Below are positions 2,229-27,853 of a stretch of 38,409 nucleotides of DNA, piece after piece. The position numbers were made by a program, and so were the translations under genes. The notes beneath the pieces were generated by a model. It saw only the letters and a list, made by a program, of their open reading frames with translations. It made no database searches and had not been told where the DNA came from. The number at the start of each line of letters is the position of its first letter. Within the stretch, counting starts at the first letter, position 1. This DNA comes from Chiloscyllium plagiosum. Its lineage: Eukaryota. Where the stretch lies: NCBI RefSeq assembly GCF_004010195.1, contig NC_057758.1, positions 1,205,396 through 1,243,804 on the forward strand. The letters are read 5' to 3'.

Positions 2229-2230
2229 NN

Positions 2231-2311
2231 TGTTGGGAAAGGGTGTGTAAGGAAGGCACTATTACAATATTCACGGTAGACCTCTGTATGCAGGTGGACT
2301 GGGAATATCAG
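2231..2311 (+). mobile_element. short CR1-type LINE endonuclease fragment
   Basis: VCKEGTITIFTVDLCMQVDWEYQ resembles the decayed 'IIMGDFN..VDW' motif of the APE domain. Confidence 0.5.
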
Positions 2312-3637: not shown

Positions 3638-3649
3638 GTTTGTGGTTGT

Positions 3650-4471: not shown

Positions 4472-4529
4472 NNNNNNNNNNNNNNNNNNNNNNNNNNNNN
4501 NNNNNNNNNNNNNNNNNNNNNNNNNNNNN
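4472..4529. other. assembly gap (N run)
   Basis: Ns. Confidence 1.
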
Positions 4530-4730
4530 AAAAGAACACTTCCTTAGACACGATCGATGATGCAACAAAGACTCATGATATGATTGATTTTAGGCTGAAA
4601 CACCATGAATTGGCGTTGGATTTCTGTGTGTTTGTTTTAAATTATTCGGCCAAATTCAAAATTGCCGTCTAAACAAGCTTAAGGCATCCATTAACAAAAC
4701 CAATTGTTCCATGTTTCCATTTTAGAACTA

Positions 4731-4959
4731 GGAGAAAGTGAGGACTGCAGATGCTGGAGATCAGAGCTGAAAAATGTGTTGCTGGAAAAGCGCAGCAGGT
4801 CAAGCAGCATCCAAGGAGCAGGAGAATCGACGTTTCGGGCATAATCCCTTTTTCAGGAAAATTTTCCTGAAGAAGGACTCATGCCCGAAACGTCGATTCT
4901 CCTGATCCCTGGATGTTGCCTGACCTGCTGCGCTTTTCCAGCAACACATTTTTCAGCTC
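4731..4959. mobile_element. fold-back (palindromic) Penelope pLTR-derived insertion with TSD
   Basis: 98-bp inverted arms 4764-4861 and 4862-4959 with no spacer; 33-nt unpaired extension; flanked by TCCATTTTAGAACT (4716-4729) and TCCATTTTGGAACT (4958-4971). Confidence 0.85.
4863..4898 (+). ncRNA. minimal type-I hammerhead-ribozyme-like motif
   Basis: CTGAAGA(4867-4873)-A-GGAC TCAT GCCC-GAAA-CGTC; stem II has one mismatch and stem I is weak; a mirrored, mutated copy lies on the minus strand at ~4828-4858. Confidence 0.5.
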
Positions 4960-5084
4960 CATTTTGGAACTGTGTACTTTCTCCACCTGATTCCTTTAAG
5001 TGATAAAAGGATTATATCTTAAAGGGGGCATACGTTGTTTTGCAATTCATGATTATTTTATAAAAGTATTTAGCACTTTCATCT

Positions 5085-8000
5085 CCAATGCTCACTGTTT
5101 AACTCTCACTCTCAGTCTCAAAGCTCACTGTGCCAGTCTGTGTCAATCCCAGTGCTCAGTGTTCTAGTCTGAGATATTCCTGAAATTTAGTGTAATTGTG
5201 TGTTGGGGGGTGGGGGCACAGAGCTCACGACCTCAGTCATAGTCGCAGATCTCACTTTTCAACTCCGTCAGTCCCTAAGTTCGCTGACCCAGTCTGTGGC
5301 AGTTCCAGAACTCAATGTCCCAGTCTTACTCTCAGTCCCAAGGCTCAGTGGCCCAGTCTGTGCCAGTCCCAGACAACACAGGCCCAGCATCTTTGAGTCG
5401 CAGAAATTGCAGTCCTGTTCTCACTCGCATTCCCAGAGCGCAATAATCCACCCTCTGTCCGCCCCACAACCCACTGTCAAATTCTTTCACTTACAGAGCT
5501 CTCTGTTCCAATATCTGTCAGTCCGAAGCTTCATTGTCACTGCCTCAATCAGCCACAGAGAGCACTATCCCAGTCTCTGTCAGTCCTAGAGCACAATGCC
5601 CAGGTGTCTGTGAGTCCCAGAGATCACTGTCTCATCCTAAATCACCCCGAGACCTCATTTTCCCAGTTTCTGTCAGCCCGTGTTCACTGTCCCAGGATGT
5701 GTCAGTCCCAGAGCGCAGTGCCCCAGTCTCATTCAGTTCCAGAGATCGCTCTGTCAGTCTCTTTCAGGCCCAGTGCTGACTGTTTCAGTCTCTTTCCGTC
5801 TTAGAGCTCATTGCGTCTGTCTCATTCTCCCTTCCTCTGCTAACTCTCCAGGTTTCTGGGAGCTCTCTCCTACATTCTTCCCCGCCGTCTGTCTCAGTCC
5901 CAGATCACACTGGCCCAGAAACGTTCAATTCCAGTGCTCACTGTCTCAGTTTCACTCTTAATCCCAGAAATCACTGTCCCAGATTCTCCCAGTCCCACAG
6001 CCTAATGTCACAGGCTTATTCAGTCCCAGAACTTGTTGTTCCTGTCTCTGCGAGGCCGACAACTCAATGTCCCAGTCTCACTCTCAGTCGCAATCTCACT
6101 TTCTGCCTCGAGTTCATTGTCTCAGTCTGTGCTCCAATCTGTCATTCTCACACCTCACTATCCCTGTCTCTGTTAGTTCGAGGACTCACTGTCCCAGTCT
6201 CACGCAATCCCAGAATTTACTGCCCCAACCTCGGCCAGTTCCAGACCTCATATTTACATTCGGTGACAATTCTAGAGCTTACTGCTGCAGTCTGTGACTG
6301 TCCCAGCGCTCACTGTCCCCATCACTGTCAGTCCCAGACCTCACAGTCTCAATCTTTTTCTTTTAATTTTCAGAGGTCACTGTCACACTCTCACTCTCAA
6401 TCCCAGTGATCACCTTCCCAGTCTCACTCTCAGATCCAGAACCCATTGTCCCTGCCTCTTTCATTGCAAGAGCCCATTGCCCACTTTCAGGCTCACTTTC
6501 AGTCCCAGTCCCGAGCGCCCAGTGATTCTCAGATCTCACTGGGACAGTCTCTTTCTGTTCCAGACCACACTGTCTCACTCTTGTGTCCCATCGTTCAACA
6601 CCACAGTCTCATTCTGGGTCCCATGCGCTCACTGCGACAATCACCTTCTGTCAGGACTTGATTGTCCAAAGTCCATATCATTTCCAGTGCTCATTCTTTC
6701 AGATTTGGTCAGTCACAGTGTTTACTGTCCCAGTCTTTCTCAATCCCAGAGCTCGTTCTCCAAGTCTCACGCTCAGTCCTACAGCTCTTTCACAGAAGCC
6801 TCTGTCAACTCCACTTCTCACTGTCCCACTTCCTGTCCGTCTGTGTGTTCACTCTCCCAGTCACTATTTGCATGACAACTCACTATCCTAGTCTGGGTCA
6901 ACCCCGCAGCTCATTGTCGCAGTCACTGTCAGTCTCAGAGGTAACTATCCCAGTCTCTCTCTCGTCTTAGTGCTCAGTGTCCAAGTCTGTCAATCACAGA
7001 GCTCACCGTCTCAGTCTGTTTCTGGTACAGAACTCACTTTCACAGTTTGTGTCAGTTGCAGAGCTCACTGTCATAGTCTGTGTCAGTCCCAGTGCTCATT
7101 GTACTAGTCTGTGTTCGTCCCAGATCTCGCTAGTCCAGCCTATTTCAGTTCCAGAGTTGAAATATCCCAGTCTGACTCGCTGTTCCAATTTCATTCTCGA
7201 TCCCAAGTGCACAATGTCCCAATCACTTTCAGTCTCAGATCTCACTCTCCAAGTAGCTGACTGCCCCAGCTTTCACTCTTCCAATCTCTTCCCCACTACA
7301 TTCCTCACTCTTCCAGTTAGTCTCAGTCCCAGAACTCACTACCCCAGTCTATTTCATTCCCAAATCTCAGTGAATCAGTCTGTGAGGGACCCAGATCTTA
7401 CTGTTCTAGTCTCTTTCAGTCCCACAGCTCACTGTCCCGGTCTCACTTTCGGTCCCAGAGTTCACTGCCCCACTTTCTCCCAGGGCCGGCTTGCTGACCC
7501 AGTCTGGCTCTCAGTCCGAGGTCTCAATGAACCAGTCTGTGTCAGCACCAGATCTAAACTGGCCATGTCTCTTTCAGTCCCAGAGCTTGTTGTCCCAGTC
7601 TCACCTTCGGTCCCACAACTCACTGTACGTATCTCAGTCTCGGTACAAGAAATCACAGTCTTGGGCGCTGCCAGTTCCACAGCTCACCATTCCAATCTGT
7701 GTCAGTCCCGGAGCTCACTGTCACAGTCTTTGTCAGTTCCAGAACTCACTTACCTAGCTCCTGTCAGTCCAAGTCCTCACTCTTCCAGTCTCTCTTAGTC
7801 TCCATGTTTACTCTCCGAGTTTCTCGTCAGTCCCAGAGCTTATTCCGCCAGTCTCTGTCAGTTACAGTGCTTGGTGTCCCAGTCTATTACAGTCCCAGAG
7901 CTCACTGACCCAGTGTGTGTCAGTCCCATATGTCACGTCCACTGTCTTTCGGTCCCATAGCTGACTGTCCCAGTCTCTGTCAGTCTCAGAACTCACTGCC

Positions 8001-9265
8001 CTCGTCTCTGTCAGTGTAATTGCTCACTGTCCCAATCTTCCCATTCCTATTAAGCACTATTCCAGTCTTACTCTCAGTCCCAGGTCTCAGTGACATAGTC
8101 TGTATTAGTCCCAGAGCTTGCTTTCCCATTCTCACAGTTGGTCGCAGAGCTTAGACGTTGTCAATCCCTGCTCACTGTTCCAGTCTGTGTTAGTCCCAGC
8201 GCTCACTCTGCCAGTTCCTTGTAGTTCCAGGCCTCACTGTCCGAGTCTCTGTTAATCCCGTTGTTCACTCTCCGAGTTTGTTGTTATTCCCAGTGCTTAA
8301 TCTCTCAACTGTCAGGCAGCAGTTCACAGTTACAGTCTCTGTCAATCCCTGTGCTCAATCTCGCAGTCTCACTCAGTTCCAGTGCTCTCTGTCCCACTTT
8401 AAATCTCAGCCCCAATACTCTCTGCTCTTGTCTCTTCCTGTCCAGAAATTAATCTTCCAGTGCCATTCAGCACCAAATCTCACTATGATCATCTCACGCT
8501 CGGTCCCAGAGCTCACTGTCCCCAGACTGTCAGTCTCACAAATCGCCGTACCACTCTGTGTCAAAGCCACACCTCATTGCACCACAGTTGTGTTCAGCCT
8601 CAGAGCTTACTGTCCCAATTGCTGTCAGTCCCAAAGCTTACAGTCCCTGACTGTGGTAGTCGCAGAGCTCACTGTGCCACATTGCGTAGTCTCAGGGCTC
8701 CATTGCAATCTCACTTTCTGTCCCTGCGCTGTCTGCTCAAATCGCATTCTATTCCAAAACCAATCTCCCCGTCTCATTGACTCCTGGTTCTCACTGTCTC
8801 ACTTCTGAAGCTCGGCCACAAAGCTCACTGTCGAAATCCCTGTCAGTCTCAATGCTCACATTCCAAGTCTGACTCAGTCCAAATGCCACTCTCCCAGTCT
8901 CAGTCAGATCTCATTCTCCCAGTTCCTTGTCAGTACCAGTGCTCATTTGCCCAGAACCGACTGTCAGCATCTGTCAGAATCACAGATGTCACTGTCCTGG
9001 GCTGTTTCAGTCCTAGACCTCATTGTTTCAGTCTCTCTTAGTCCCAGAGTTCTCTTGCACAGTGTCACGCTCAGTCCCATTGCTCGTTGTCCCAGTTTCA
9101 CTCTCAGTCCCCAAGAACTCACTGTCCAAGTCTCACCTTCAGTCAAAGAGCTAACTGTCTCATCCTCTGTTAGTTTCAGAGCTCACTGTCTGAGTCTCAG
9201 TCAGTTCTAAGAGTTCAGTGTCCCTGTCTGTTTCAGACCCAGTGTTCACTGTCAGTCTGTGTCAG
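5085..9265. repeat. degenerate 31-bp minisatellite, main block (~4.2 kb)
   Basis: Consensus read by eye as CCCAGAGCTCACTGTCCCAGTCTCTGTCAGT (variant ..CTCACTCTCAGT); accounts for the many SQSLSVPELT/PRAHCPSL-type spurious ORFs. Confidence 0.9.
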
Positions 9266-9422
9266 TCTAAGGGGCGGGTCATCAAGAAAATTAAGACATT
9301 GTTGATCTCAAAGTTAGACGTAAAAATGGCAGGTTCATAAAAAACATAGGTACTGCGTCTGCAAATGAACAAAAAGTAAGCAGTGAATAGGAAAGGTGAG
9401 ATACAGCTGCAGATTTTAACCA

Positions 9423-9646
9423 GGCGAACGTGAGGAATGCAGATGCTGGAGATCAGAGTCGAGGTTAGAGTGGTGCTGGAAAAGCACGGCAGGTAAGGCA
9501 GCATCCGAGGAGCAGGGAAAACGACATTTCAGGCAAAAGCCCTTCATTATTCCTGATGAAGGGCTTTTGCCTGAAACGTCGTTTTCCCTGCTCCTCGGAT
9601 GTTGCCTGACCTGCTATGCTTTTCCAGCACCACTCTAATCTAGACT
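9423..9646. mobile_element. second fold-back Penelope pLTR-derived insertion with TSD
   Basis: ~93-bp inverted arms 9457-9549 and 9554-9646; 34-nt unpaired extension; flanked by CTGCAGATTTTAACCA (9407-9422) and CTGCAAATTTTAACCA (9645-9660). Confidence 0.85.
9549..9584 (+). ncRNA. minimal type-I hammerhead-ribozyme-like motif
   Basis: CTGATGA(9553-9559)-A-GGGC TTTT GCCT-GAAA-CGTC: intact core boxes, 4-bp stem II, palindromic ACGT at stem III; stem I poorly paired. Confidence 0.6.
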
Positions 9647-9798
9647 GCAAATTTTAACCACCTACAAAATAAATATAATTTTGTGGGTGCTCCATTGTCT
9701 GGGTCTAACGAAGACAAGGACTAGGTGTGACACATTCCTGATTACAAGGTGTTCAGGTATGTTAAGAAAATTTGTGATGGTAAATGTTGCAGATATTG

Positions 9799-9903
9799 GA
9801 GAGAGACGGGTGACAGAGACACAGAGAGAGAGAGTGAGACTCTGTGTGTATGTGTGTGTGTGTGTGTATGAGAGAGAGAGAGAGAGTGAAAGAGTGAGAG
9901 AGG
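9799..9903. repeat. compound (GA)n/(TG)n microsatellite
   Basis: gagagagagagtgagactctgtgtgtatgtgtgtgtgtgtgtatgagagagagagagag. Confidence 0.9.
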
Positions 9904-10429
9904 AAACAAACCATCCCCTTCATAGATACAAGAAATTGGGAGTGTCCATTTGCACAGTTCATTGTAGGGCATTGAGACAGGTTGTCATCATTGGTTTCGA
10001 TTTGATAAAGGCGAGCATGGACCAGGACTGGGTCAAGATGAAAGGAGCGAAAAAGGATCTCACCCAGGTTAACTTTTACACATCGTTTATGAGGTTCATT
10101 GATAACAGAGCCACAGGCTAGTGTTTAAGGAAGAGTTCGTTCAGACACAGTCGCGGGGAGGACAAGTATAACAGCCAGAGAAAAACTGAAGCCATTTGTC
10201 ATATCTGAGGCCTGATTCACTATTCAGTAGGACCTTGTCCGATTCTATTGTAAATCCGTACATTCCAAAATCCATGCCCCTTAAGTTCTGGATTGACCCA
10301 CACCAGAGACATCCTTCTCACGTCTGCCTTGTCCAAGTGATTCAGTGGCTTAAACTCTTCAATCAGGTCACCCATCCACCAACCACTGGCTCAACGAACT
10401 CTTCAGCAACGCAGCTGGAACAAGCCAAA

Positions 10430-10885
10430 TATGCCCAAACTTCATAAGAAAACAATCCCACTCATTCGAGGAAACCACCCCCTGAACCAGCTCCGACACA
10501 TTTAAATCCCTCCTTCAATAAGGAGAGCAGAACTGCATACAGCATTACACATGTGGTTTCTTAGGCATCCTGCGTAACATAAACATCATTTTTTGTGTGC
10601 GCTGCATCTTATCAGAAAGAATATCACTCCATTAGCTTCTTTCATTATGTTCTGTGTTTACACAATAACTTATTGAGTCTCAAGCGCCTCAAGATGTAAA
10701 TCGCTTTGCTCCTCAGATTTTTGAAGTCGCCGTCTTTTGAAATAATACATGCTCTAACTTTAACATTTTGTTCCAATCTGAAAAACTTGCTATTTTCCCA
10801 GCTTGTGTCCAGCTGCCAGAGTTTTGCCCACTCGATTAACCTATCTCTGTGAGTTTGTAAGCACCTTGTGCCTTCCACACCAAAC
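10430..10885 (-). mobile_element. old CR1-type LINE RT C-terminal fragment
   Basis: ORF 10645..10878 RCLQTHRDRLIEWAKLWQL corresponds to the CR1 'LQ.D.DRL.EWA..WQM' motif. Confidence 0.7.
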
Positions 10886-11283
10886 CCTGCCTTTCCTGCT
10901 GCTGCCTGTGAAATTTGCTCGACACAATCCCTTCCTTATCTCAGACCATGATCAAAAAATGACTGACCTGTTTCTTTGTGGGTTTTTTTCGCATTGCTAC
11001 TACTCTCAACAGTTTAAGGAAAGAAAAAACTATTCATATCACTGTAGAACACCTTGTGACATTATTGATGTTAGCTACCAGTCATCTCTGAATCTCACTC
11101 TTCGTTTCTATACAATTCATTCACCACGTCTTGAATGTTCTGATCATCTCTTGTTTTTCTACTGAATATCCTATATGTCATCAATCACATTTTTCAACGT
11201 TATATTATCAATTTTCCAATCGTGACGCCAAGCATTTGTTTGAGCTACCTTTCCAGCATGGAAAATAAGCCTTAATCGTACCT

Positions 11284-12120
11284 NNNNNNNNNNNNNNNNN
11301 NNNNNNNNNNNNNNNNNNNNNNNNNNNNNNNNNNNNNNNNNNNNNNNNNNNNNNNNNNNNNNNNNNNNNNNNNNNNNNNNNNNNNNNNNNNNNNNNNNNN
11401 NNNNNNNNNNNNNNNNNNNNNNNNNNNNNNNNNNNNNNNNNNNNNNNNNNNNNNNNNNNNNNNNNNNNNNNNNNNNNNNNNNNNNNNNNNNNNNNNNNNN
11501 NNNNNNNNNNNNNNNNNNNNNNNNNNNNNNNNNNNNNNNNNNNNNNNNNNNNNNNNNNNNNNNNNNNNNNNNNNNNNNNNNNNNNNNNNNNNNNNNNNNN
11601 NNNNNNNNNNNNNNNNNNNNNNNNNNNNNNNNNNNNNNNNNNNNNNNNNNNNNNNNNNNNNNNNNNNNNNNNNNNNNNNNNNNNNNNNNNNNNNNNNNNN
11701 NNNNNNNNNNNNNNNNNNNNNNNNNNNNNNNNNNNNNNNNNNNNNNNNNNNNNNNNNNNNNNNNNNNNNNNNNNNNNNNNNNNNNNNNNNNNNNNNNNNN
11801 NNNNNNNNNNNNNNNNNNNNNNNNNNNNNNNNNNNNNNNNNNNNNNNNNNNNNNNNNNNNNNNNNNNNNNNNNNNNNNNNNNNNNNNNNNNNNNNNNNNN
11901 NNNNNNNNNNNNNNNNNNNNNNNNNNNNNNNNNNNNNNNNNNNNNNNNNNNNNNNNNNNNNNNNNNNNNNNNNNNNNNNNNNNNNNNNNNNNNNNNNNNN
12001 NNNNNNNNNNNNNNNNNNNNNNNNNNNNNNNNNNNNNNNNNNNNNNNNNNNNNNNNNNNNNNNNNNNNNNNNNNNNNNNNNNNNNNNNNNNNNNNNNNNN
12101 NNNNNNNNNNNNNNNNNNNN
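11284..12120. other. assembly gap (N run); may hold the 5' LTR of the downstream Gypsy element
   Basis: Ns; the gag leader begins immediately after. Confidence 0.95.
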
Positions 12121-15064
12121 GGTTCTAGCCTGGACCATAACAGATTGGTTCCCTTGTTGGGAATGATTCTATAATTCCAATTTGGGTTTTGGTTTGTTGA
12201 ACTCAAAGATGGTGTTGATATGTTGTGTTCTGGTTGTTAAAATCCATTAGTTTCAACCGTGCTTGTGTCGTAATGGCTCATTTAGAAAGATTCTGGCGGT
12301 TAGAATAAGTGACTTTGTGGGTTATACACAAGGTGAGAAAAGCAGATTTGTGAGAATTGGCAGACAAGTGGAAGTTGGCGTTGCATTCATCTGTGAGGAA
12401 TGGAGCGATAGTTACAGAACTGGTTTGGCATTTAAATTTGCTGGAAAAATCATCAGACTTCAATTCAATTGCAGATGAGACAGTTTGAACATGAAAATAA
12501 AATGGAACCGTTTAAATTACTGTTAAAAGCAAAGAAAAGAGAAAAAAGGAATGAATCGGCCTCGCAGAACAAAAAGAAAATGAAGCATCACTTTGGGATA
12601 ACAATAATAAAAGGAGAGGAAGGCTCCAGGAGTGAAAAGAGACAAGGAGCGAGAGGAAAGGAACAAAGAGAGAGTGTTTGAACTTCAGAAATTGGCACTT
12701 TAACAGGAAAGTCGGCTTAAAAGGATGGACGAGCTTAAAAATTCCTTTCCCGAGTTCATGAAAACTCATGGGGAAAAACAAAGAGTCAAAACAGCATGAT
12801 TAGCAACGGAAATGACAAATCGTTACGAGTTGGTTCATATATCAAAGTTCAGTTTCCACCATCGATTTCAACCCGTGAGAGATAGAAATTGAGGAAAAGA
12901 GAAATCCTCATGTGGTAACATAATAAAGATAGGTTACCACAGAGTAAAAAGGAAACCCGTGAATGGTTTAAGAGGAATTGAAAAGGCTCTGATGCAATAA
13001 AATGGGTCCCACAAAGTCACAGTGTTGGTTATTTATGAAAAGGACTCGGAAGACTGATGTCAGAAAACAGGATAAATCAATTAATAATTGGAAGAGGTAT
13101 AGAAAGCACAGTAGAAGTTAAAAAGCTGCACCAGCATATCCAAACTGGTCGGAGGTGGGTTGAGACGTAAGTGCCCGATCTTCTTGAACCTTTTACTTGC
13201 AGTATAACCTTTTACTTGCAGTATAAGTATAACTCGCAGATATTTGATTTGTTTAAGCCAGGAACAGCAGGTAAATAATTACAGAATCAAGAGATCATGT
13301 CATTCTTTGATATTGAGAGATGAGGTTTATTGCCAGAAGAACAGCTAATGCGTGGAATTCAAGATGAGACAAGAAGTGCATCATTGTATAGAGTGAGGTT
13401 ACAATGTCCAGTGAAAAGTAGAAAAGTGGTCATACGAGTACCGGACAACCTTACGGCTCCAATAGTACAGGTGAGCCTTGGTAATGATATAACTAAGTGA
13501 CACGTTGATGTGCTGCTTACTGTGGTCAAAACTGCGGTAAATCAGGCAACTGAGGCGTTAAAGGAAGCATGCTCCGGGATCTTTCCCCCATCTGTCTGAT
13601 AACAAGTTCACAAAGTCATTAGCTGAAACAGGGAGCGAAATGAAAGAATACCAATAAGCAAGTTGAAGTATAATTATCAGAAATCATGTTAGATCAAGTG
13701 CTTGAAACAAAACAGAAACAGGTGGAGATCAAAGTGAATTAGTTTACCTCAGAGAAATGAATTGAATTACAACAGAAGCAATTGTAACAAAAAACATACA
13801 CAGAATAAATATCTGAGTGTATACCTGAATACGACTATCTTAAAATTGAAGTCTTGTTCAGGAAATGGAAAACATCACATACTGAGGCAGATGAGAAATG
13901 GGCAGCGTTTCGTCAAGTTAGATATGTGAGATATAGAAAGGAAGTGTTGTGGCTTGTGCATGAATTCATAGTAGGTAGCAATTTTGGGATAAGACCAGCT
14001 GCAGTTAAAATGCAAAACTCATTTTTACTGGCCTGGTTGACTCAGAATGCAATTGAATTATGCCAGATATGTCACCCATGTCAGATAATTGGGGAACCGT
14101 AGGCAATAATACAACCATTTATAAATGCCTTCAATATCTATTCTTGCATTTGAGGGAACTTTGACAAGGATCTTAATTGATTACCCAAGACAAAAATGCG
14201 AATCAGTACCTGCTAACAATAATGTGCCCACGAGACTTCCAAAGGCCAGTCCATTAGATGATTTCACAGCAGAAGCGTTACTCAATTTTTTTTTTTCACG
14301 AGATATGGAATATTTACATAGATACAATCAGACCAAGGGTCGCATTTTGCTTCAAAATTATTCAGGGACATTATAGACAACTTTTGAACAAAACAATTCA
14401 AATCTATTGCGTGCTGTCCACAATTGCAGGGAACGCTAGAAGCGTGGCATCAGACGCTAAAGACCACGTTAAAACGCTAATACTCAAGACTACCCAGATG
14501 ATTGCGATAAAGGAATTCCATTTTCCTGTTTGCCGTTAGATGCGCACCAAATGAATCGATGAAATTCAGTCTATTTAAATTAATTTCTGGGCATGATGTG
14601 AGAGGATGACTGAAATTAATTAATGAGAAATTGGTGAGTCAGAATTCAGAGACCACAAATTTGGAATGGTTAAATATATCGTGGAACTTTGTGGACAATA
14701 TGTAAAAATAACACTGTATATGGTAAAACAGCAAGCATACAAGAAATCTAAAACTCGCAATTTTGCTAAAGGAGTTAAAGCGTTGGTGTTGTTTCCAGTG
14801 ATAAGTGAACCTCTGACATCAAGGTGAACTATTTGGTAAGGACTCCAGACAGAAATAAATTTCACAGCGATTTTTAAGTGAATATGCTCAAAAGTGTATT
14901 TTCGTCGGGAACGAAAGCAAAAGCTGAATGTTTTACGTAATACAGCACAGAGTGAAGAACCAAGTTCAGAACGTTATGACTCGGATATTCCTCAAAATAA
15001 TATTGAATGCATGCGACATGACTACAGAATCAAAGTGAGTTGTAGTGACTGCAGCTCACCCATA

Positions 15065-17850: not shown

Positions 17851-17921
17851 AAATACAACTAGACATTTTTGAAACCAAACCTGGATATTGTCCGGGAATG
17901 TCACATTTGGATGTAAGTTTA

Positions 17922-18020
17922 TAAGAACCAGGAGCTGGAGTAGGCCATCTGGCCCTTCGAGTTCGCTCCCCTATTAAATAAGAGTATGTTTGATCTTTTT
18001 ATGTCCTCGACGCCACTCAC
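17922..18020 (-). mobile_element. LINE 3'-terminal fragment (CR1-type)
   Basis: ATAAGAACCAGGAGCTGGAGTAGGCCATCTGGCCCTTCGAG resembles a reverse-complement CR1 3' UTR. Confidence 0.55.
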
Positions 18021-18021
18021 G

Positions 18022-18355
18022 AGAACCATAGAATCCGTACGTGCGGAAACAGGTCATTCGGTCCAGCAAGTCCACACCGACTTTCTGTAAAGTATCCCAA
18101 ATAGACCGTTTCCTCTTTTACTCTGCCTTTACCACTGACCTATGCATCTAACCTACATATCCCTGAACATTATGAAAAAATTAGCATGGCCAATTCACCT
18201 AATCTGCACTTGGATTGTGGGAGGCAACTGGAGCACCCGAAGCAAACCCACGCAGACACAGTCAGAATGTGTAAACTCCACAGACATTTGCACGAATCCT
18301 GAATCGAACCCTGGGTCCCAGGCGCTGTGAGGCAGCAACGCGAACCACTGAGCAA
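18022..18355 (-). mobile_element. older HE1/V-SINE-type SINE
   Basis: Reverse-complement tail (GGAAACAGGTCATTCGGTCC), V-domain (GGAGCACCCGAAGCAAACCCACGCAGACAC) and B box (GAATCGAACCC). Confidence 0.8.
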
Positions 18356-18500
18356 CAGTGCACTGTCACTGGGTAGAAATCCTGGAATCCCCTACCTAAG
18401 GCATTGGAAGTCTGCCTACAAAATGTGGACTGCAGTGATTGAAGAAGGTCGCTCAACAACATCTTCGCAAGGGAGTAACGAGAAACGATCAATAAATTCT
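18356..18500 (+). mobile_element. LINE-like 3' end fragment
   Basis: TCACTGGGTAGAAATCCTGGAATCCCCTACCT..TGGACTGCAG..AAGAAGG..AATAAA; a WN.LP-type LINE C-terminus. Confidence 0.45.
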
Positions 18501-18704
18501 ACAACCATATTGCACCAGGGAAGGAGAAATTGCAAATGTCTGGGAAATAGACTCCAAGCGGAAGTTTCAGTTGGATGCAAGAATTTTGAAGAAGCAAATG
18601 GAATCGAGCATTAAGACGAAGCATAATAAGGATTCAAGTCTCTGGTAAATATCGTAGACAATAAGAACAGTTAATAACATTTTTTCTTCAACAGTGGGGG
18701 AGGT

Positions 18705-18978
18705 GGTTCTGTCGAAGGATCACTTTACCCAAGACGTTATCTCTGATTTCCTTTCACAGATGCTGTCAGTCATGCTGAGCTTTTCAGCACTTCCTGCTTT
18801 TTTTTTCTTTTTTGCCAAATTCAGAGTCATTTCGATTTCTGGGTACTGTTCTTTGGGCTGTCAGGAGGTAATCAGTAATGAAAGCAAACATTGTTGGAGA
18901 AACCCAACAGGTCTGGCAGCATCTATGAAGACAAAACACCGTCAACATTTTTGGTCCAATTACCCTTCTTCTGAACTC
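18705..18978. mobile_element. two degenerate Penelope-type pLTR tails in convergent orientation
   Basis: Plus copy TTCTGTCGAAGGATCAC..ACGTT..CAGATGCTGTCAGTCATGCTGAG..CAGCA (18705-18800); minus copy TTCAGAAGAAGGGTAATTGGACCAAAAATGTTGAC..AGATGCTGCCAGACCTGTTGGGTTTCTCCAACA (18880-18978). Confidence 0.6.
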
Positions 18979-20129
18979 AGGAGACAACTAGCTCCTGTTA
19001 TTCAAGGTTCAATGGCAGGCTCAATTCTCTATCTCGTCGACATTGTTGAGTTCATAGGACAGCATTGTACAATCGGCAGGCTTTCGGATGACATACGTTT
19101 TGGCAGAAGAATGGGGAGACGTAAGACAGAAATCCTTTACAGTCCAGTAAAGGAGATGTGATAGCGGGCTTAAAACTCATCGCGGCCGTCGATGGATTTA
19201 AATGTCAAGGTAGGGGTGGGGAAGGTGGGACCATCATGGGATTCAGGAACTAAACCCCTGCTGCTGGTATTACTCTGCATCATAGTGCAGCCGTCCAGTC
19301 TGCCAAGCCCCTCAAAGGCAGAATGCAGTCAGTGTAAAATTCTAAACTGTTTGATCTCTCCTCATTTGACACAATCATCATCTCAGGTTCATGGACTAAA
19401 TTCATGAGAGACGTCGGAAAGCACCAACAGCAGCAAGGGAGGGACAGTAGACGTGGTGTAAGAGCATGAGTACAATGTTACAATCAACTGCAGACTATCA
19501 TCCAATGGTGACTTCTAATGTTATTAATCAATTTTCGAAAAAAATTTCCAGTTCATGTTTCTGAATTTCCAGTATGATGTGCCCAGATTCCGTTCCACTG
19601 TTCTAATACTCAAGCGTGTCCTTATTGTAGTACGAGCACTCCTCTCCCTCTCTCTCAGAAATGCTGATTCCTGCACATGGCAGAGCTGGGGCCATGAGAT
19701 GACACTTCGGAAGGTCGCCTCATGAAGGGAGAGGAGATCTCTCCAACGACGCAACGAGGATCCCTGCAGACTGACATGAGATGCAGTCTTCGAACAAACA
19801 GATTCAGATGTCCGTCCAACCAACAGGACTTCGACTAGGAGCGGCAGGAAAACAAATAACATGCACTTTCACCGTTGACACATCCAAAAACAAGGATTAC
19901 AAAAGAAAGCGCGCGCACACACACACACAGAGCAGTGGCACTGTCCATGACCTACCCGTGTTGTAATTCGAAGCTTTTTTTTTCATTTCAGCCAGAGGTG
20001 CTCTTGAAAACAATGCATCTCTTAAATAGATCTCTCAGCGTAATGTCAGAGATAGTGTGGGGAGGGGGCATGGTCTTACAACATGCTAATACAAACATGC
20101 TTTATAAAACAACATGCATGTACCACAGC

Positions 20130-20375
20130 ATAGAAATAGGACGTTCAGTCCATCATATGTGTACTGACCCACAAACACCAAATTACGCTACTCCCTTTTC
20201 CTGTTGCTTGGTCCAATGCCAACTATACCTTAGCAGATGTTTCTGAAATATGAGAGTACCTGCATCTGCGACCGTCTCATGTAGCACATAACATGAAAAG
20301 AAAATCTCCGATCTTCTCTAAATCACCTGCTTCTCACCGTAAACTGATGCCCCCGCACGAAGACCCGTCTGCCAA
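20130..20375 (-). mobile_element. degenerate CR1 3' fragment
   Basis: Weak resemblance to the reverse-complement CR1 3' end (GAGAGTACCTGCATCTGCGACC..CCTGCTTCTCACCGTAAACTGATGCCCC). Confidence 0.45.
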
Positions 20376-21082
20376 TAGAACATAGAACATAGAAAAATAC
20401 AGCGCATTACAGGCCCTTTGGCCCTCGATGTTGCGCCGATCCAAGCCCACCTAACCTACACTAGCCCACTATCCTCCATATGCCTATCCAATGCCCGATT
20501 AAATGCCAATAAAGAGGGAGAGTCCACCACTGCTACTGGCAGGGCATTCCATGAACTCACGACTCGCTGAGTAAAGAATCTACCCCTAACATCTGTCCTA
20601 TACCTACCACCCATTAATTTAAAGCTATGCCCCCTCGTAATAGCTGACTCCATACGTGGAAAACGGTTCTCATGGTCAATCCTATCTAAACCCCTAATCA
20701 TCTTGTACACCTCTATCAAGTCACCACTAAACCTTCTTTTCTCCAATCAAAACAGCCCCAAGTGCCTCAGCCTTTCCTCATACGATGTTCCTACCATACC
20801 AGGCAACATCCTGGTAAACCTCCTCACCACATCCTTCCTATAGTATGGCGACCAAAACTGCACACAATACTCCAGATGCGGCCTCACCAGACACCTTTCT
20901 GCCCAGCTCTGCAACTTATCTATATCCCGCTGTAACCTGACACATCTTTCCTCACTGTCAACAACTCCACCGACTTTCGTATCATCCGCAAACTTGCTCC
21001 AACCTTCTAGCCCCTCCTCCAGGTCATTTATAAAAATGACAAACAGCAATGGTCCCAAAACAGATCCTTGCAGAACACCAAG
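20376..21082 (-). mobile_element. CR1-type LINE 3' portion with internal deletions
   Basis: ORFs 20747..21112 (GVLQGSVLGPLLFVIFINDL..SKFADDTKVGG..LVRPHLEYCVQFWSP) and 20456..20746 (GDLIEVYK..FFTQRVVSSWNALP); (TAGAACA)n tail. Confidence 0.92.
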
Positions 21083-21149
21083 GGATTGCCAAGGGATATT
21101 GACAGGAAACAAAACTGGGCTGAGAAGTGGCAGGTGGAGTTGGGAACAG

Positions 21150-22215
21150 TACCTTCCTGATCTAAATCACACACAGAGGTATTCCAAATCTTCGCTCTCT
21201 CAACACAGTGACATCTCTCCCAAACTATATTACTTACTGAGTGCCCCATACCCATTCTCTGTTCCCACAATGACAGCTCCCCCAATGAATATTACTCACT
21301 CGGTTCCCCACACTTTTACCACTTTGACAGCAACATGTTGATTTATATTACACACTGATTGCCGCCACCCTGCCTGTCTGTTAACCCAGTCACAGCTCTT
21401 TCTGGTCCATATTAGTTTCTGAATGACACCCTGTTACCACAGTGACAGCTGTCCCAGTGAATATTACTCAGTTCGTGCCACATGCACAGTCTCTGTTACT
21501 ACACTGACAGTTCCCTCCTGATATATCTCACACAATGAGTGACTGCACATAACATCTTTATGACCAAAATGACAGTCCCCTTCAGATCTATATTACATCC
21601 TGAGTGACTCCACAGCCCCTCTCTTTTGCTGCGGTGACACTTACCCACATGTGTATAACACACGGAATGACCCTGCACTCCCCCTTTGTTAGCACTCAGA
21701 CAGCTCTTTTCAGATCTATATTCGACACACAGTGATTCCACATCTCCACACAATTAGCACAATGACAGCTCCCCCAATGAATATTACTCAGAGTACCCCA
21801 CACCCACTCTCTGTTACCACAGTGACAGCTTGGTCCTGATCTGCTACCACGGTGATTACTCTCTCTGAGTTATTTTACACACAGTGTTATTCAAACCCTC
21901 CTTCTCTTACCACCATGACAGCTCCCTCCTGACCTACATTACTTACAGTGTATCCCACTAATAACTCTATATTTTTCCGTGGTGTCAGCTCGCTCCTGAT
22001 CTACTTTACAATCTGATTGTCTTCACAACTGCTCTCTGTTAACCAAGTGACAATTTTCTCCTGACCTGTATTACAGAATGAGTGACTCCACATCTCTTCT
22101 CTAATAACAAAGTGATAGCTTCCACCTGATCGGTATTACACACTCAGTAATATCATAGTCCCTCTCTCTCCTACCACCGTAACATCTCCCCTCCTGATCT
22201 ATGTTACTGCAGTGA
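21150..22215. repeat. degenerate ~60-66-bp tandem repeat
   Basis: Recurring CTCTGTTACCACAGTGACAGCTCCCTCCTGATCTATATTACA-like units; TGACAGCT at ~21763 and ~21823, related motifs at ~21916, 21983, 22049, 22113, 22180. Confidence 0.8.
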
Positions 22216-22246
22216 AAATTCTAGACGCTCTCAGTTTTCGACGTTC

Positions 22247-23128
22247 TCATCCTTTAATACATTGAAGAAGTGAAGTGAAGGGATATTTCAGAGCTTTTCC
22301 AAACTGCTGTCTAAAATTTCTCTGAATCACACAATAAAAAATAGAATTAGTGCAGCAACCCATGATTTGTAGCATGAAGCCTAGTTCACGTGCAAAACCA
22401 TCGATCGAAGTTCCATAGAACCATTTCCTTAATCGGTACCATATGCAATAAACTGTTAACGTTGACCATAGGACGATGAAATTGGCTGAGATTGTAAAGA
22501 TCAGAATAACTGACTTCCTGCGTCTCTGCATCTCTGGGTCTCTTGAACACTCCAAGGAACTGTTGGAAAATAGTCTTCTGCGGCTTCTGCTTGTGACTAA
22601 AATGTGTCTGACAATGAAAGCATTGGGTGCCAAAGAAATGGGCACCCAGGACTTAGGATGTATTGTAGAAACTCAAGAGCTCCCCAAAATCGAGAATAGA
22701 CGATCTTCAATCTTACAACACAGAACCAAGGAGCGTTCCACAGTCGATACTTGCTCGTGAACATAAAAAACCAGAATACATTCTCTACGCAGTCACTATT
22801 CCAAGGACGACAAGTGTCATTTTATTCGTGAAGTATTTACTTTGAAGTTTGTGACAAGAAATCGCCACAAATCGATCCAATGTGAATGCGACGGTGAACC
22901 AGACAGAACAGTCAGAAATTGTGTTCAGCAGAACTGCATGAATGTTGCAAATGGGGATGGAAATCATGAAATAAAACTGTTCCTGGAAAACAATCGGAAT
23001 GTGCCTCAATATCAGATCAAAAATAACGACGAGTAGATCCGCCACCGCCATGGACAACAGGTAATAGGTGATGCTTTTGGAGAAACTGCACTTCTTTTGA
23101 CAGAGTATTACAATTGTCAGTCCGTTCA
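22247..23128 (-). pseudogene. GPR139-like: GPR139/GPR142-like class A GPCR, coding exon 2 (TM1 end to TM7), frameshifted
   Basis: NGLTIVILCQKKC..YYLLSMAVADLLVVI..CSVWFTVAFTLDRFVAISCHKL; a middle frame (ENVFWFFMF..PWFC..FWGALEFLQYILSPG); then IVRHILVTSR..DPEMQRRRKSVILIF..CCTNSIFYCVIQRNFRQQF; frameshifts at ~22787 and ~22645; polypyrimidine tract plus AG acceptor at 23129-23150. Confidence 0.88.
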
Positions 23129-23619
23129 CTTTGAGGAAGAGAAAGAAATGATATGTAAATAATATTACTTAGCTGCAGATAATATTGAGATCATTGCTAA
23201 ATTGACTCTTAATGTTCCTCACATTTGGTTTGAAAATTTGAGCTGACGTTGAGCATCGAAACTTGAACGTTGAACAGCAGCTTGTTTGAATTTCTGACGA
23301 GGGAAAAGCACAAAAGCACATAAACTGATATTTGGATAAGGGAACTGGTCTGGAAAGATAATTACAGATGAATTATTGTTCTAAGAAGACTGCAAATATT
23401 TCAGCACGGGTATGCGTTACGTTTAAGGTCTGACTAACAGTTGAATGTTCGATTAGTCAATCGTGGGAGGCTGGTCCCAAAAGGCCAACCACAGCGAATG
23501 TTGAAAATGAGAAGGATGCTGTGGAATAAATCGTGCATGGGTGGTTTTTTCAAGTCACCGTCCGCTTGCATGAAAGCTGGTAGACTAGTGAGCTGTGTTT
23601 GAGCTTCATTTTAGAAACC

Positions 23620-24310
23620 CTACAGCTCAACCCTTTCATGGTGACCAGATTTCCAAACTCGAATAGTCTGATTTTCCTCCATTAAATACGTATCCCCTAA
23701 ACCCTTTCTATTCATATAACTGCTTAAATGTCTTTAAGATATTTCAACTTTACTCACCCCTACCACTTCACCTGGCAGCTCATTCCATTTACGCACCACC
23801 CTCTGTATAAATAAAAGTTGCCTCTCACGTCTCTTCTCAATCCTTCCCTCTCAGTTGAGCCCGTGTCCTCTAGTTTTCGTTTTTCACTATATCTTTGGCC
23901 TTGTAACGCTGCAAAAACATATAAGGACACTCCTCCACCTCCTACACTCCAGGGTAAAAAACACAGCCTATCTCGGTTCTCTTGCAAACTGAATCCCTTC
24001 AGTATTTTTAACACACCTGTAGGTCTTTTCTTCAACATTTTCATTTTTAGAACATCCACTCTGCAACAGGAAAATTAGAATTATGCACAATACTCCAAAA
24101 CATGGCCACACTAACTTTTTCTTTAGCTGCAACCTGATACCCAAACTCCTAAACCCAATTCTCTAACCAACGAAGGGAAGGGTGCCAAATACCTTCTTCA
24201 CCACGTTATCTGGCTGTGACGACAATTTCAACGAACCATCTACCTGCATACCTTGGTCTGTCTGTTCGATAATATTCCTCAGGGCCTTAACATTAACTAT
24301 GTAGGTTCTG
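23620..24310 (-). mobile_element. CR1-type LINE 3' fragment
   Basis: Reverse complement of CR1 C-terminal/3' region (ACCACTTCACCTGGCAGCTCATTCCA, ATGCACAATACTCCAAAA). Confidence 0.8.
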
Positions 24311-24549
24311 CCACAGTGGAGAGCACGCCACTGTCTGCATCAACAATGATGACAGAGAGATAGTCAAGAGCGTCAAGATTCTTTGATTGATTATCTGTGC
24401 TGCTTCACCCAATTGGGCGTGATGATCAAGGAAATATAACAACAGCTTGAACAGAGGCTAAGTAACTTTTAATGGCCTCCTAATTGCCGGAGGCCCCTTT
24501 GCCTGAAAGCGAACTACTCCAATCCACATCTGAAATGTCCTGCCTACTT

Positions 24550-26030
24550 CTGTCGAAATGCGAGTTTGCCCACTTTAGAATTTGAACCTGCAAACCAGTT
24601 TCTTTTCCAGGTTCATAACTGTTATAAAATTAATAGAACTGTGGTCACCGGTTCGAAAATACTACCTACTGTCACCTTAACCACCTGTCCTACCCTATTT
24701 CGCAAGAGAGGATCGAGTTTTGCTCCTTCCCGAGGAGAACCCTTTCCATACTGCTTCAGGAAACTTTAATGACCGCACTATATAAATTCCAAAACATATA
24801 AATCTTTAACGTTCTGGCAGTTCCTATCTATATTAGGAAATTTAAAACATCCTACTAAGACAACCCAATTGCTCCTCCAATTCTCACCATGTCCTTGCAT
24901 AGTTTTTCCTCTAATCCCCGTGCACTATTACGTAGCCTCTACTACAATCCAAATAACGTCACAGACCTTTCTTACTTCTTTGCTCCATTCACAAAGCCTC
25001 ACTGGATGGTCCTTCAACTATTAAATCTTTGACTACTGATTTGATACTCGCTTTTATTAAATGCAAAGCCCTCATCACTTTCCAACACCTGTGTCCGCAT
25101 AAACCACATGTTTCCTGGCAAAATAAGCAGCCAGTCCTGTGCCTCCCTTCGCCATGTTTCTGTGATGGCTTTAATATCCCAGTTCCACGTTCCTATCCAC
25201 GCCCTGCTTTCATCAGCCTTACCTGTCAGTCGCCTTGCATTGAAATAAATGCAAATAAATTCAATTGATATTCCTCTCCTCCTGCCGTGTTCCAACCTGA
25301 CCTTTCTCTTCAACTTACTATTTCTGATTATTGTGTCTCCTTGACGCCTCCACTTGCCTCCCTGCTGTTGATGATTCCATCTCCCTGCCTATCTAGTTTA
25401 AATCCTCCCTTGTCTCACTTGCCGTCAAGATGTTGTCCCCCTCCACTTCAGTTTCAATCCGTCCTTTTTGAACCGCCTGCCTCTAATTTAGAAAATATCC
25501 CAATGTATGCATTTTCCACAGGTGCCGTCAACAGAGATGATGTAAGTCTCCCTGAACTCCAACATCCTGCAGGAGGAACATGCAACTGTGTTAACTGTCA
25601 TCTATGCTGCTCGTAGACTAAAGAGGTAAGTTAAAGAGATATTAACTGTAGCGTATTTTTTCTGAGCCATTTTACGTAGCCTGCTACTAACAAATTTTCC
25701 AACGGCAGTTCTCTCAACCAGCACGACCACAGATTTTATTTTTTGGTGAAAGAAGGAGAGAAATACTACAATGCTGCAGTGCTTGGACCTTAAGCACACC
25801 TTGATATCATGTGCACTACGACTCGCTCTTCAACGCAGGTGACTGCTTGGAGGCTGTCATGTATGCTCCAAAGTAATAACTACGTCACTCGGTCGCCCTC
25901 AGCTGGATGTTCTTCCTGCCGCTGCTCACGGCGACAGTTGCCAGTCAATCCACTTTTCAGTGAGGTGACTGCTTTCATGCTGCAACGTATGTGCCGACGT
26001 GTTGCCTCCACCTCTCAGTTGCTGGATGCT
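24550..26030 (-). mobile_element. CR1-type LINE 5' remnant (APE endonuclease and upstream ORF1 debris)
   Basis: ORF 25014..25313: CIYFNARRLTGKADESRAWIGTWNWDIKAITETW matches the APE N-terminus; boundaries approximate. Confidence 0.7.
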
Positions 26031-26243
26031 ATAGGCTCCTGTGACTTGAAGATCAAGTTTGGAAGGATTAAGGGACACCGGGTGGCAAAACATATTGAGG
26101 TTTTGAATATAAAAAAGGATGCATGGCTGAGGTACAGGCAGCCGAGATCGAGGGAATGCTGTAAAGTATGCAAGGATTACAGGAGTTTATGAAAAAGAAA
26201 TCAGAAGGGCAAGATGGAGTCACGAGGTATTCTCAGTTGAGAA

Positions 26244-26598
26244 GGGTGGTTAGCACAGTGGTTCAGTGGTCAGTACTGCTGACCCACAGTGCCAAGGAGT
26301 CCAGTTCGATTCAACCCTTGTCTGACTATCTATGTGGGAAATTCATATTCTCCCTGTGCCTGCATGGGTTTCCTCCGCCTGGTCTGATTTCCTCTCACAA
26401 TAAAAAGATGTGCAGGATTGGCGAATTTACTGTGTTAAATGACCCATAGCGTTCAAGGATGCGTGTTTTACATGTATTAGTCAGGGGTAAATGGAGAGTA
26501 ATGGGTGAGGGGAATGGGCCTGTGTGGGTTAGTCTTTCGAGGGTTAGTGTGGACTGGTCGGCTAAATGGCATGCTTCCACATTGCAGAGATACTATAA
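26244..26598 (+). mobile_element. diverged HE1/V-SINE-type SINE
   Basis: A box TGGTTCAGTGG, B box AGTTCGATTC, decayed V-domain and tail. Confidence 0.75.
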
Positions 26599-27026
26599 AG
26601 ATTACAGTGAATGCAAAGAAACTTTTATTGAAATGTACTTAAGGAAAACGAATAGCTAAAAAGTGATAGGACCCCTCAAGAGCAAAAGTGACCATGTATG
26701 TGTGGAACAGCAGGAGATTCAAGAGCCGCTCAATGAATATTTCTCCACTGCGTTGAACGTATAGAAAGACAAGAAGACTTAGGAACATGGTGGCGTCATG
26801 GTGATATCTTGAGGGCAGTCAATATCACAGTGGAGGAGGTGTTGGGTGTATTAGAATGTATGAAGTTGGAACAATTTCCTGGTTCTGAACAGGTGTAATC
26901 CAAGAACCCTGCAAGAGGCTACAGAAGAAATTACAGGGCCACTAGCTCACATTTTTGCATTGTTGTTATAGCCACTGGTGAGATCCCGGAAGAGCTGAGG
27001 ATAGCGAATATTGTCACCTTATTTAA

Positions 27027-27096
27027 GGATCGGTGTAGACTCGTTGGGTCGAAGGGCCTATTTCCACAATGTAAGTAATGTAATCTAATCTAATCA
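27027..27096 (+). mobile_element. 5'-truncated HE1 SINE/LINE tail
   Basis: TTGGGTCGAAGGGCCTATTTCCACAATGTAAGTAATGTAATCTAATCTAATC. Confidence 0.75.
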
Positions 27097-27579
27097 TATA
27101 TACTTTTAGAAAGACGCCAATTGATTATGAGTAGTCAGCATGATATTGTGAGTAGAAGGTCATACCTTACCAGTTTTCTGAGAACTATTTCATAAAGTGA
27201 TCTGGTAGACTGATGACGGCAGGAGATCATATGCAGTCTACATGGATTTCAGTAAGGTATTTGGTAAGGTTCCACCGAATGGGTTGCAATGGAAGGTGAG
27301 ACAGCATTGAAAATAATTCAACCTGGCAAATTAATTGACTTGTTGACTTGTTGATAAGAAGCAGACGGTAACAGTGGAATGATGTTTGTTGGATTGGAGG
27401 CCTCTGACTAATGGTGTGCCTCAGGGCTCTCTGCTGGGCACATTGCTGCTTGTCATCCACGTCATGATTTAAATGAGAAGGAGGGAAGGCATGATGGTTA
27501 AGTACGCAGATGACATGAAAATAGTTGGGATCATGGGCAGTTAGGAAAACCATGAGAAATTGCCGCATGATCTTGATTA

Positions 27580-27853
27580 GGAGAAAGTGATGACTGCAGA
27601 TGCTGGAAATCAAGAGTCAGAGAATTTGGCAATGAAAAAGCAAAGCATGCCAGGCAGCATCTGAGAAGCAGGAAAGTCGATGGATCAGCCAAAAAAGCCT
27701 CATGATTGAGGCTTTTTGATCAAGGTGGTTGATCCCGTGTGGTTGTGGGCCCCAAGGCGGAAGATGAGGTATTCTTCGTCCAGACGTCGATGGCGAGGAA
27801 TTGGTAGTGGAGGAGGCCCAGTATTTGCATGTACTTGACGGAGTGGGAGGGGT
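27580..27853 (-). mobile_element. Penelope-like element 3' end (GIY-YIG C-terminus and pLTR)
   Basis: Starts GGAGAAAGTGATGACTGCAGATGCTGG, the same terminus as at 4731 and 9423; minus strand encodes RRLDEEYLIFRL / GPQPHGIN. Confidence 0.8.

What the first reader, a model, noticed from the sequence alone, without database searches (positions are those of the whole stretch)
4731..27721. Candidate system: stereotyped fold-back at the Penelope hammerhead, seen four times in one window
Seen: four independent pLTR copies with different sequences invert at the ribozyme motif (2729-2752, axis 4861/4862, axis ~9551, and 27692-27717). The two complete cases share an architecture: total ~225 bp, 33-34-nt unpaired tail starting GG(A/C)GAA(A/C)GTGAGG, 93-98-bp arms, right arm ending at nearly the same homologous base, 14-16-bp TSD with an ATTTT core, and 2-nt overlap between arm and TSD. 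Established: Penelope elements often show inverted partial pLTRs and a short 3' tail. Inference: either a non-autonomous, retrozyme/MITE-like family that would transcribe as a ~95-bp dsRNA hairpin with ribozyme motifs in both polarities, or a reproducible integration by-product in which cDNA synthesis stalls at the hammerhead and snaps back. I cannot tell from the sequence whether this has been described in sharks.
Basis: partly seen in the sequence, partly recalled or inferred. Interest (0 to 1): 0.78.

Follow-up and report, generated by a model that had tools for sequence, protein, structure and literature searches.

The report
Twin-primed Penelope hairpin stubs in shark
These mirror-image stubs are real and very common insertions of a known kind of jumping gene (a Penelope-like retroelement); their layout is already described, but their exact ends suggest that each is likely built on the spot from two DNA copies of the front end of one RNA, which would explain how this group makes its inverted ends.

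Summary
Real, but two kinds. 4731-4959 and 9423-9646 are complete head-to-head stubs with one tail and a TSD. 2729-2752 and 27692-27717 are short copy-back scars in copies that carry on in the same direction.

In 1.53 Mb of evenly spaced genome samples, 48 of 63 head-to-head pairs have TSDs, and all 48 have exactly one tail. The farther arm stops at the first base of hammerhead helix I (+5..-3) in 27 of 48, at the ribozyme cut in 1 of 48. In 18 of 48 the tail-less arm reaches further than the tailed one, which copy-back of one cDNA cannot give. One shared axis occurs in several subfamilies with the tail on either arm (7 vs 8), so it recurs de novo. This is not a MITE or retrozyme.

Best model (inferred): two primings 33 nt apart on one RNA, run-off at its 5' end, end-joining.

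The layout is published (PMC3846280, PMC8557442); my searches did not find this mechanism in print. The scan noted the same stubs before, here and in other genomes.

The parts
4731..4959 (.). E1: complete head-to-head Penelope stub, subfamily A. Both arms end at +2, with a 4-nt filler at 4860-4863.
   Evidence: same axis at one other independent locus and a local duplicate
4731..4763 (-). E1 tail, 33 nt, between the outer and inner inferred RT start sites; part of the ORF's 5' end
   Evidence: the tail continues into the ORF in L283 and L125
4716..4729 (+). E1 TSD, left copy (right copy 4958-4971)
4864..4898 (+). E1 right-arm minimal hammerhead; core boxes present, one stem II mismatch
9423..9646 (.). 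E2: complete head-to-head stub, subfamily C. Left arm ends near +8, right arm starts at +1 (9549).
   Evidence: axis pattern has 119 exact matches in G000
9407..9422 (+). E2 TSD, left copy (right copy 9645-9660)
9549..9584 (+). E2 right-arm minimal hammerhead, core intact; +1 = 9549, predicted cut after 9580
1974..2856 (+). E3: 3' part of a Penelope-like element (endonuclease region, pLTR, hammerhead, tail), subfamily B
   Evidence: 88-91% identical to near-full-length copy L281
2723..2752 (.). E3 scar: 16 nt around +1 replaced by copy-back pieces, giving the 24-nt palindrome 2729-2752; the element resumes in the same direction
27580..27852 (-). E4: old tailed arm with a degenerate hammerhead, a 26-nt fold-back (27692-27717), then a jump to the element's upstream body in the same direction
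   Evidence: 27729-27852 matches L283 3251-3126

Best explanation
The stubs are Penelope-like insertions with one tail and a target-site duplication, each likely built anew at insertion by twin priming rather than copied as a unit. SHOWN: the parent is an RT + GIY-YIG element whose tail lies inside the RNA, about 95-130 nt from +1 (the first base of hammerhead helix I); arms start at two fixed sites, about +130 and +95; arms pile up at +1; the two arms share one haplotype; junctions carry microhomology or filler. INFERRED: (1) the endonuclease makes a staggered cut of about 15 nt; (2) each 3' end primes RT, one at the outer and one at the inner site of the same RNA, which forces one tail per element; (3) both cDNAs run to the RNA's 5' end at +1, likely the capped transcription start; (4) the two cDNA ends are trimmed and joined by end-joining. 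If only one cDNA survives, a solo results, with or without tail. If one cDNA starts further down the RNA, the textbook element with an inverted 5' pLTR results. The ribozyme marks the place but likely neither cuts nor stalls the enzyme here. A read-through transcript is predicted to lock it in a ~95-bp hairpin.
For: One tail in 48 of 48 TSD-flanked pairs and 59 of 63 pairs overall, while solos are 73 of 141 tailed. Tail-less solos with their own TSD exist, 7 of 21. The tail-less arm reaches >=5 nt further in 18 of 48, the tailed arm in 13. Arm ends: 65 of 241 at +1..+5, 18 at -1..-5, 9 at +31..35. Genome-wide, 8,093 exact subfamily-A copies leave the template right after +1, against 2,952 after +5, 3,876 after -1 and 15,132 that run to -4; 0 of 60 inspected loci continue into the template. 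Copies that enter the ORF obey the same limit: 3 of 20 extend upstream of -3, 6 start at +1..+5, 12 carry an inverted arm, and 4 start at +98..+101, next to the inner site. The base after +1 is C in 63 of the first 100 rows against 40 of 100 in the +5 control (p=0.002), as expected for a copied cap or run-off addition. An A/T-rich motif sits at -30..-32 in 37 of 41 extended copies, and -3..+3 is one initiator-like hexamer in 29 of 41 (consensus recalled). Arms differ by 7.3% within and 15.3% between elements, with no excess of chimeras (15 seen, 18.9 expected). In vitro, an anole PLE cuts and extends both strands, starts RT at two sites bounding the tail (main start 111-118 nt into the ORF), and does not need hammerhead cleavage (PMC11167929). 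In subfamily A the outer site is about 112 nt past the ATG in the stem II loop.
Against: No direct RNA 5'-end data: the one raw RNA lay showed no place where many molecules begin. The C excess is weaker in subfamily B (45 of 100, not different from the subfamily-A control, p=0.57), the control is itself C-rich, and many C junctions can also be read as microhomology. Clean single extra bases are only 3 C against 1 T. Stops are spread over +1..+10 rather than one base. Shared haplotypes fit copy-back equally well. Arm asymmetry could come from later deletion at the palindrome centre. One RNA cannot be told from two sister RNAs, except by the one-tail rule. The clade (Poseidon or other) was not tested.
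Confidence: 0.62

Rival explanations
1. Self-priming (snap-back): one cDNA or antisense RNA folds back near +1 and copies itself, the endonuclease trims the copy at the inner site to leave the tail, and later deletions make the centre asymmetric.
For: This combines two published readings: self-priming for palindromic junctions (PMC3846280) and endonuclease resolution for the tail (PMC8557442). The arms share haplotypes. Short copy-back pieces do occur (E3, E4).
Against: It needs a second event in the 18 of 48 elements where the tail-less arm is longer, including by 100 and 105 nt. Loops of 0-2 nt and foreign fillers of 80-130 nt occur at junctions (L020; L263/L264). Tail-less solos have their own TSDs. 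An identical axis has the tail on either arm.
Confidence: 0.17
2. Dual priming: the same two-cDNA join, but from two separate RNAs held by a protein or ribozyme dimer.
For: The anole protein is predicted to be a dimer (PMC11167929) and minimal hammerheads are proposed to work as dimers (PMC4209133). E1's arms differ at a few subfamily-variable sites.
Against: Independent choice of start site would give two-tailed and no-tailed pairs; 0 of 48 are seen. There is no excess of chimeric arms.
Confidence: 0.12
3. The hairpin is a non-autonomous unit (MITE- or retrozyme-like) that is itself transcribed and copied.
For: E2's axis pattern has 119 exact matches. One long complex junction occurs at 9 loci.
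Against: The 15 E2-type loci read span several subfamilies with the tail on either arm. 6 of the 9 long-junction loci abut N gaps and none shows a TSD at the element's ends, so assembly error is likely there. E1's axis has one other independent locus. Lengths run 143-384 bp.
Confidence: 0.04
4. The ribozyme sets the end: RT stops at the self-cleaved RNA end or stalls at the fold, or a 5'-to-3' exonuclease is blocked at the fold's edge.
For: +1 is exactly the first base of helix I (fold of L281). An exonuclease block would give the same boundary.
Against: The farther arm ends at the cut site in 1 of 48. A stall should occur on entering the fold, not on leaving it. The -30 motif, the initiator-like site and the C excess point to a start site. 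Cleavage is dispensable in vitro.
Confidence: 0.05

Closest known systems
EN+ Penelope-like element insertions with inverted pLTR, one-sided tail and TSD (Adineta vaga Pen2a_Av and others, PMC3846280; general scheme, PMC8557442)
   Same: Head-to-head inverted pLTR, 30-40-nt tail on one end, TSD, palindromes at the junction, TATA- and initiator-like motifs in the pLTR.
   Different: Here the commonest form has no ORF (median 211 bp), TSDs are longer (10-21 against 8-10 bp), and there are on the order of 10^5 copies. Those papers invoke self-priming and endonuclease resolution, which the nesting test does not favour.
Anole Poseidon element PAc in vitro (PMC11167929)
   Same: Tail inside the ORF's 5' end, two RT start sites bounding it, hammerhead at the ORF start, both strands cut and extended.
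   Different: In the two parts of four that I read, it does not link the two sites to inverted copies or to run-off at the RNA 5' end. Shark TSDs were tested only for the ATTTT core, which is not enriched.
L1 twin priming and dual priming (PMC2837659; PMC11702581)
   Same: Two primings from the two ends of a staggered cut, an inverted 5' part, TSD preserved, microhomology at the internal join.
   Different: In L1 the second site is variable and the two cDNAs mostly cover different parts of the RNA. Here both sites are fixed, 33 nt apart, and the cDNAs cover the same ~95 nt.
Non-LTR retrozymes (bioRxiv 10.64898/2026.07.22.740005) and minimal hammerheads of PLEs (PMC4209133)
   Same: pLTR-derived, non-coding, type I minimal hammerhead; opposite-strand hammerhead pairs 100-700 bp apart were noted in Schistosoma.
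   Different: Retrozymes are head-to-tail tandem units with a ribozyme in each unit. These are head-to-head, with mostly truncated ribozymes.

Membership tests
EN+ Penelope-like element (parent) | Single ORF with RT and C-terminal GIY-YIG endonuclease | tested here: met
   The window ORF fragment's homolog P0001 (66% identical) hits GIY-YIG (E 2.5e-4) and RVT_1 (E 0.008), both under Pfam's cut-offs; the window fragments alone hit neither. Genome copies have 670-890 aa open frames ending before the same pLTR.
EN+ Penelope-like element (parent) | Minimal type I hammerhead in the pLTR | tested here: met
   Core boxes, an unpaired base before stem II and a 4-bp helix I match the description in PMC4209133. 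Rfam found no hammerhead. Activity not tested.
EN+ Penelope-like element (parent) | Inverted pLTR, one-sided 30-40-nt tail, TSD | tested here: met
   48 of 63 pairs with TSD, all with one tail
Penelope/Poseidon clade | RT phylogeny; no zinc finger in the RT-EN linker | not tested
   No tree built; only the geometry resembles PAc.
Non-LTR retrozyme | Head-to-tail tandem units, each with a complete hammerhead | tested here: not met
   Head-to-head; most arms trimmed into or to the edge of the ribozyme
Non-LTR retrozyme | Self-cleaved linear and circular RNAs | not testable with these tools
   Only one polyA single-cell run gave reads
MITE or other non-autonomous unit | Copies share a fixed length, centre and polarity | tested here: not met
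   143-384 bp; the same axis on different subfamilies and polarities
MITE or other non-autonomous unit | Symmetric terminal inverted repeats, short fixed TSD, DNA-transposon parent | tested here: not met
   One-sided tail, TSD 10-21 bp, retroelement parent. Dfam and Repbase were not available.
Twin priming (works like) | The two inverted parts come from separate primings of one RNA | tested here: inconclusive
   Non-nested arms, the one-tail rule and shared haplotypes fit; later deletion is not excluded.

The most novel reading that the evidence does not exclude
Twin priming at two fixed sites is the normal Penelope integration mode, and the short cDNA from tail to cap is a counterpart of retroviral strong-stop DNA. 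Joined to its twin it gives the hairpin stub. When it jumps onto upstream sequence of an RNA it rebuilds the pseudo-LTR and its promoter; E3, E4 and about 4 of 68 sampled solos would be scars of that jump. One mechanism would then explain the tail, the inverted pLTR and the partial tandem.
Probability: 0.3. Interest if true: 0.75.

Novelty: new member of a known kind. Interest (0 to 1): 0.5.

Why it matters
How Penelope-like elements make their one-sided tail, inverted pLTR and partial tandems is an open question in the papers read (PMC2377424, PMC3846280, PMC8557442, PMC11167929). This genome holds on the order of 10^5 natural products of the reaction (31-41 per Mb in the sample, extrapolated). 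Their ends discriminate between models and give sharp predictions for the existing in vitro system. The stubs also scatter ~95-bp potential RNA hairpins through introns, can mimic miRNA precursors (sub-threshold Rfam hits), and can be misfiled as MITEs. No host function is claimed.

Tried and rejected
Rfam: no hammerhead hit; three sub-threshold hairpin matches were dismissed. Pfam and PDB scans of the window's own ORF fragments found no relevant family. ATTTT-core TSD rejected. Cut-site end rejected. A splice acceptor at +1 was considered because the D. virilis intron ends at helix I; it was rejected because there is no AG at -2/-1 and no shared upstream exon follows. Chimeric arms from unrelated RNAs: no excess. 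The long junction shared by 9 loci was first read as a mobile unit, then set aside as a likely gap-filling error; it is not proven either way. Runs: no RNA holder listed. X21 gave reads on both strands with a depth step at +1 that mirrors genomic copy number, and no start peak; X22 gave none. This is not evidence on expression. No empty site for E1 was among the joints shown (list cut). Single arms fold no better than shuffles. In the same-direction resumption test, 11 of 68 hits fell to about 4 after removing matches to an inverted arm inside reference L282 (judged by eye).
Full report
Numbering. +1 is the first base of hammerhead helix I on the element's sense strand (window 9549 in E2). The first core box starts at +5, the predicted cut follows +32, and the tail spans about +95 to +130.

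Observation. E1 (4731-4959) and E2 (9423-9646) are as described: 98- and 91-nt arms at 92%, 33- and 34-nt tails, 14- and 16-bp TSDs with a 2-nt overlap. The other two sites differ. At 2729-2752, 16 nt around +1 are replaced by copy-back pieces and the element carries on upstream. At 27692-27717, an 11-bp fold-back is followed by a jump to the upstream body. A duplicate of the E1 locus lies 24 kb away and is not independent (L007).

Parent. The arms match the 3' pLTR of near-full-length copies with 670-890 aa open frames. The closest protein, from a bamboo shark, has weak GIY-YIG and RT hits. In L283 and L125 the tail runs on into the ORF, so it is internal to the RNA, as in the anole element.

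Unbiased sample. I took 160 stretches of 10 kb at fixed positions on the 20 largest contigs, 1.532 Mb without N. They hold 285 arms, 71 raw head-to-head pairs, 4 tail-to-tail and 13 direct. I dropped 16 arms of two divergent groups (I, H) and repeated pairings, leaving 63 pairs. Detection needs an arm to cover about +50, so shorter partners are missed; 5 of 61 tail-less solos have one. TSDs were found in 48 of 63 pairs against 7 of 315 controls. Tails per pair: one in 59, none in 3, two in 1 (beside an N gap); one in all 48 with a TSD. Solos are tailed in 73 of 141. Only 21 of 113 evaluable solos gave a TSD at my threshold; 14 are tailed and 7 not, and 13 of the 21 end at +10..-3.

Where arms stop. 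Of 268 arms with a call, 27 were censored by N or an edge. Among the 241 left, 65 end at +1..+5, 33 at +6..+10, 18 at -1..-5 and 9 at +31..+35. In TSD-flanked pairs the farther arm ends at +5..-3 in 27 of 48, upstream of -3 in 8, and at the cut site in 1. Exact genome-wide counts for subfamily A: 8,093 leave the template after +1; 3,876 after -1 (about half end in GG, perhaps a variant); 15,132 run to -4; 2,952 leave after +5, using a 24-mer shifted by four bases. Subfamily B: 2,352 after +1. None of 60 such loci continues into the template. Of the first 20 distinct places of 144 that enter the ORF, 3 extend upstream of -3, 6 start at +1..+5, 4 at +98..+101, and 12 carry an inverted arm. The last two groups recall an L1-type inversion, where one cDNA stops at the second primer.

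Is +1 the RNA's 5' end? An A/T-rich motif lies at -30..-32 in 37 of 41 extended copies, and one initiator-like hexamer covers -3..+3 in 29 of 41 (many copies are close kin, and the consensus is recalled). The non-template base after +1 is C in 63, T in 20 and A in 17 of the first 100 rows for A; 45, 44 and 11 for B; and 40, 26 and 34 in the +5 control (counted by hand). The difference holds for A (p=0.002) and not for B (p=0.57). Among solos C is 15 of 29 against 26% expected (p=0.003), after dropping one duplicate; one of the 15 (L225) has a short partner on inspection. That a copied cap leaves such a base is recalled; one passage of PMC11702581 mentions an extra G at a 5' junction, but it was cut off before its source. 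The evidence is suggestive, not proof, and the RNA lay did not help.

Snap-back or two primings. Copy-back makes the second arm a subset of the first, and only the first can carry the tail. The tail-less arm reaches at least 5 nt further in 18 of 48, the tailed arm in 13, and 17 are within 5 nt. Junctions show short microhomologies, loops of 0-2 nt, templated fillers and foreign fillers. Later deletion at the centre remains possible.

One template. Across 123 of 127 elements from all loci (random and targeted), arms differ by 7.3% within against 15.3% between elements. Discordance is 8.7% at subfamily-variable sites against 6.4% elsewhere, and elements with three or more discordant sites number 15 against 18.9 expected. 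With the one-tail rule this points to one RNA primed once at each site.

Unit or by-product. E2's axis pattern has 119 exact matches, but the 15 loci read span several subfamilies, with the tail on the short arm in 7 and on the long arm in 8. E1's axis has one other independent locus. A long junction at 9 loci is the one result pointing to a copied unit; 6 of the 9 abut N gaps and none shows a TSD.

RNA hairpin. E1 and E2 fold at -162 to -173 kcal/mol in either direction, which is predicted to bury the ribozyme. Function was not tested.

Literature. Seen: PMC11167929, parts 1-2 of 4, plus a supplement search without hits; PMC4209133, parts 1-2 of 4 (59, 62); bioRxiv 10.64898/2026.07.22.740005, part 1 of 5 and passages (11, 79; its supplements are closed and may name the cartilaginous fish and families); passages only of PMC8557442, PMC3846280, PMC8969392, PMC2377424, PMC11702581 and PMC2837659. 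The layout is known. Ten searches, including 'Penelope + twin priming + inverted' and 'shark + Penelope + palindrom', listed no paper whose title or abstract start applies twin priming or 5' run-off to Penelope elements or describes these stubs in sharks; most listed papers were not opened. Subscription papers and Repbase/Dfam were not seen.

Earlier notes of this scan. 65 findings hold the same words, and several reach the same twin-priming reading. My reading was written down before I looked. Those notes are not independent evidence.

Verdict. A real and very abundant miniature of a known Penelope layout, made anew at each insertion. Its value is as a natural test set for an unresolved mechanism. 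Interest 0.5.

Noticed in passing
window 22247-23168 (-): Rhodopsin-type GPCR coding sequence in two open frames; the first hits 7tm_1 at E 6e-11. Possibly a frameshifted single-exon gene or pseudogene.
   Followed up: partly
window 240-1127 and 12309-13195: An 888-bp inverted duplication at 99% identity, each copy near an N gap; a recent duplication or an assembly artefact.
   Followed up: no
window about 3700-9270: Long degenerate satellite-like tract of short units, 65-80% alike, into which E1 is inserted.
   Followed up: no
L007 (G000:C49:1184712-1187841): Segmental duplicate of the E1 locus 24 kb upstream of the window copy; 2860-3641 and 29762-30545 are also 95% identical.
   Followed up: partly
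L286, L291, L292, L295: ORF-entering copies whose sense part starts at +98..+101, next to the inner start site; two sit beside a tail-less inverted arm, like an L1 twin-priming inversion.
   Followed up: partly
L191-L199: One long complex fold-back junction at 9 loci, 6 beside N gaps, none with a TSD; one has inverted flanks. Likely gap-filling error, but a real copied unit is not excluded.
   Followed up: partly
L020; L263/L264; L132:1685; L164:4953: 80-130 nt of unrelated sequence captured between the two arms.
   Followed up: no
L053:4217-4384; L031:331 and 1257: Short tandem repeats (36 and 18 nt) of a segment inside the arm, possibly template slippage.
   Followed up: no
window 27954-29170 and 1628-2228: Further Penelope ORF fragments, 67-88% identical to near-full-length copies.
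   Followed up: partly
window 37946-38341 (+) and 20747-21166 (-): Open frames resembling a LINE ORF1 and a CR1-type RT (labels recalled, not tested).
   Followed up: no
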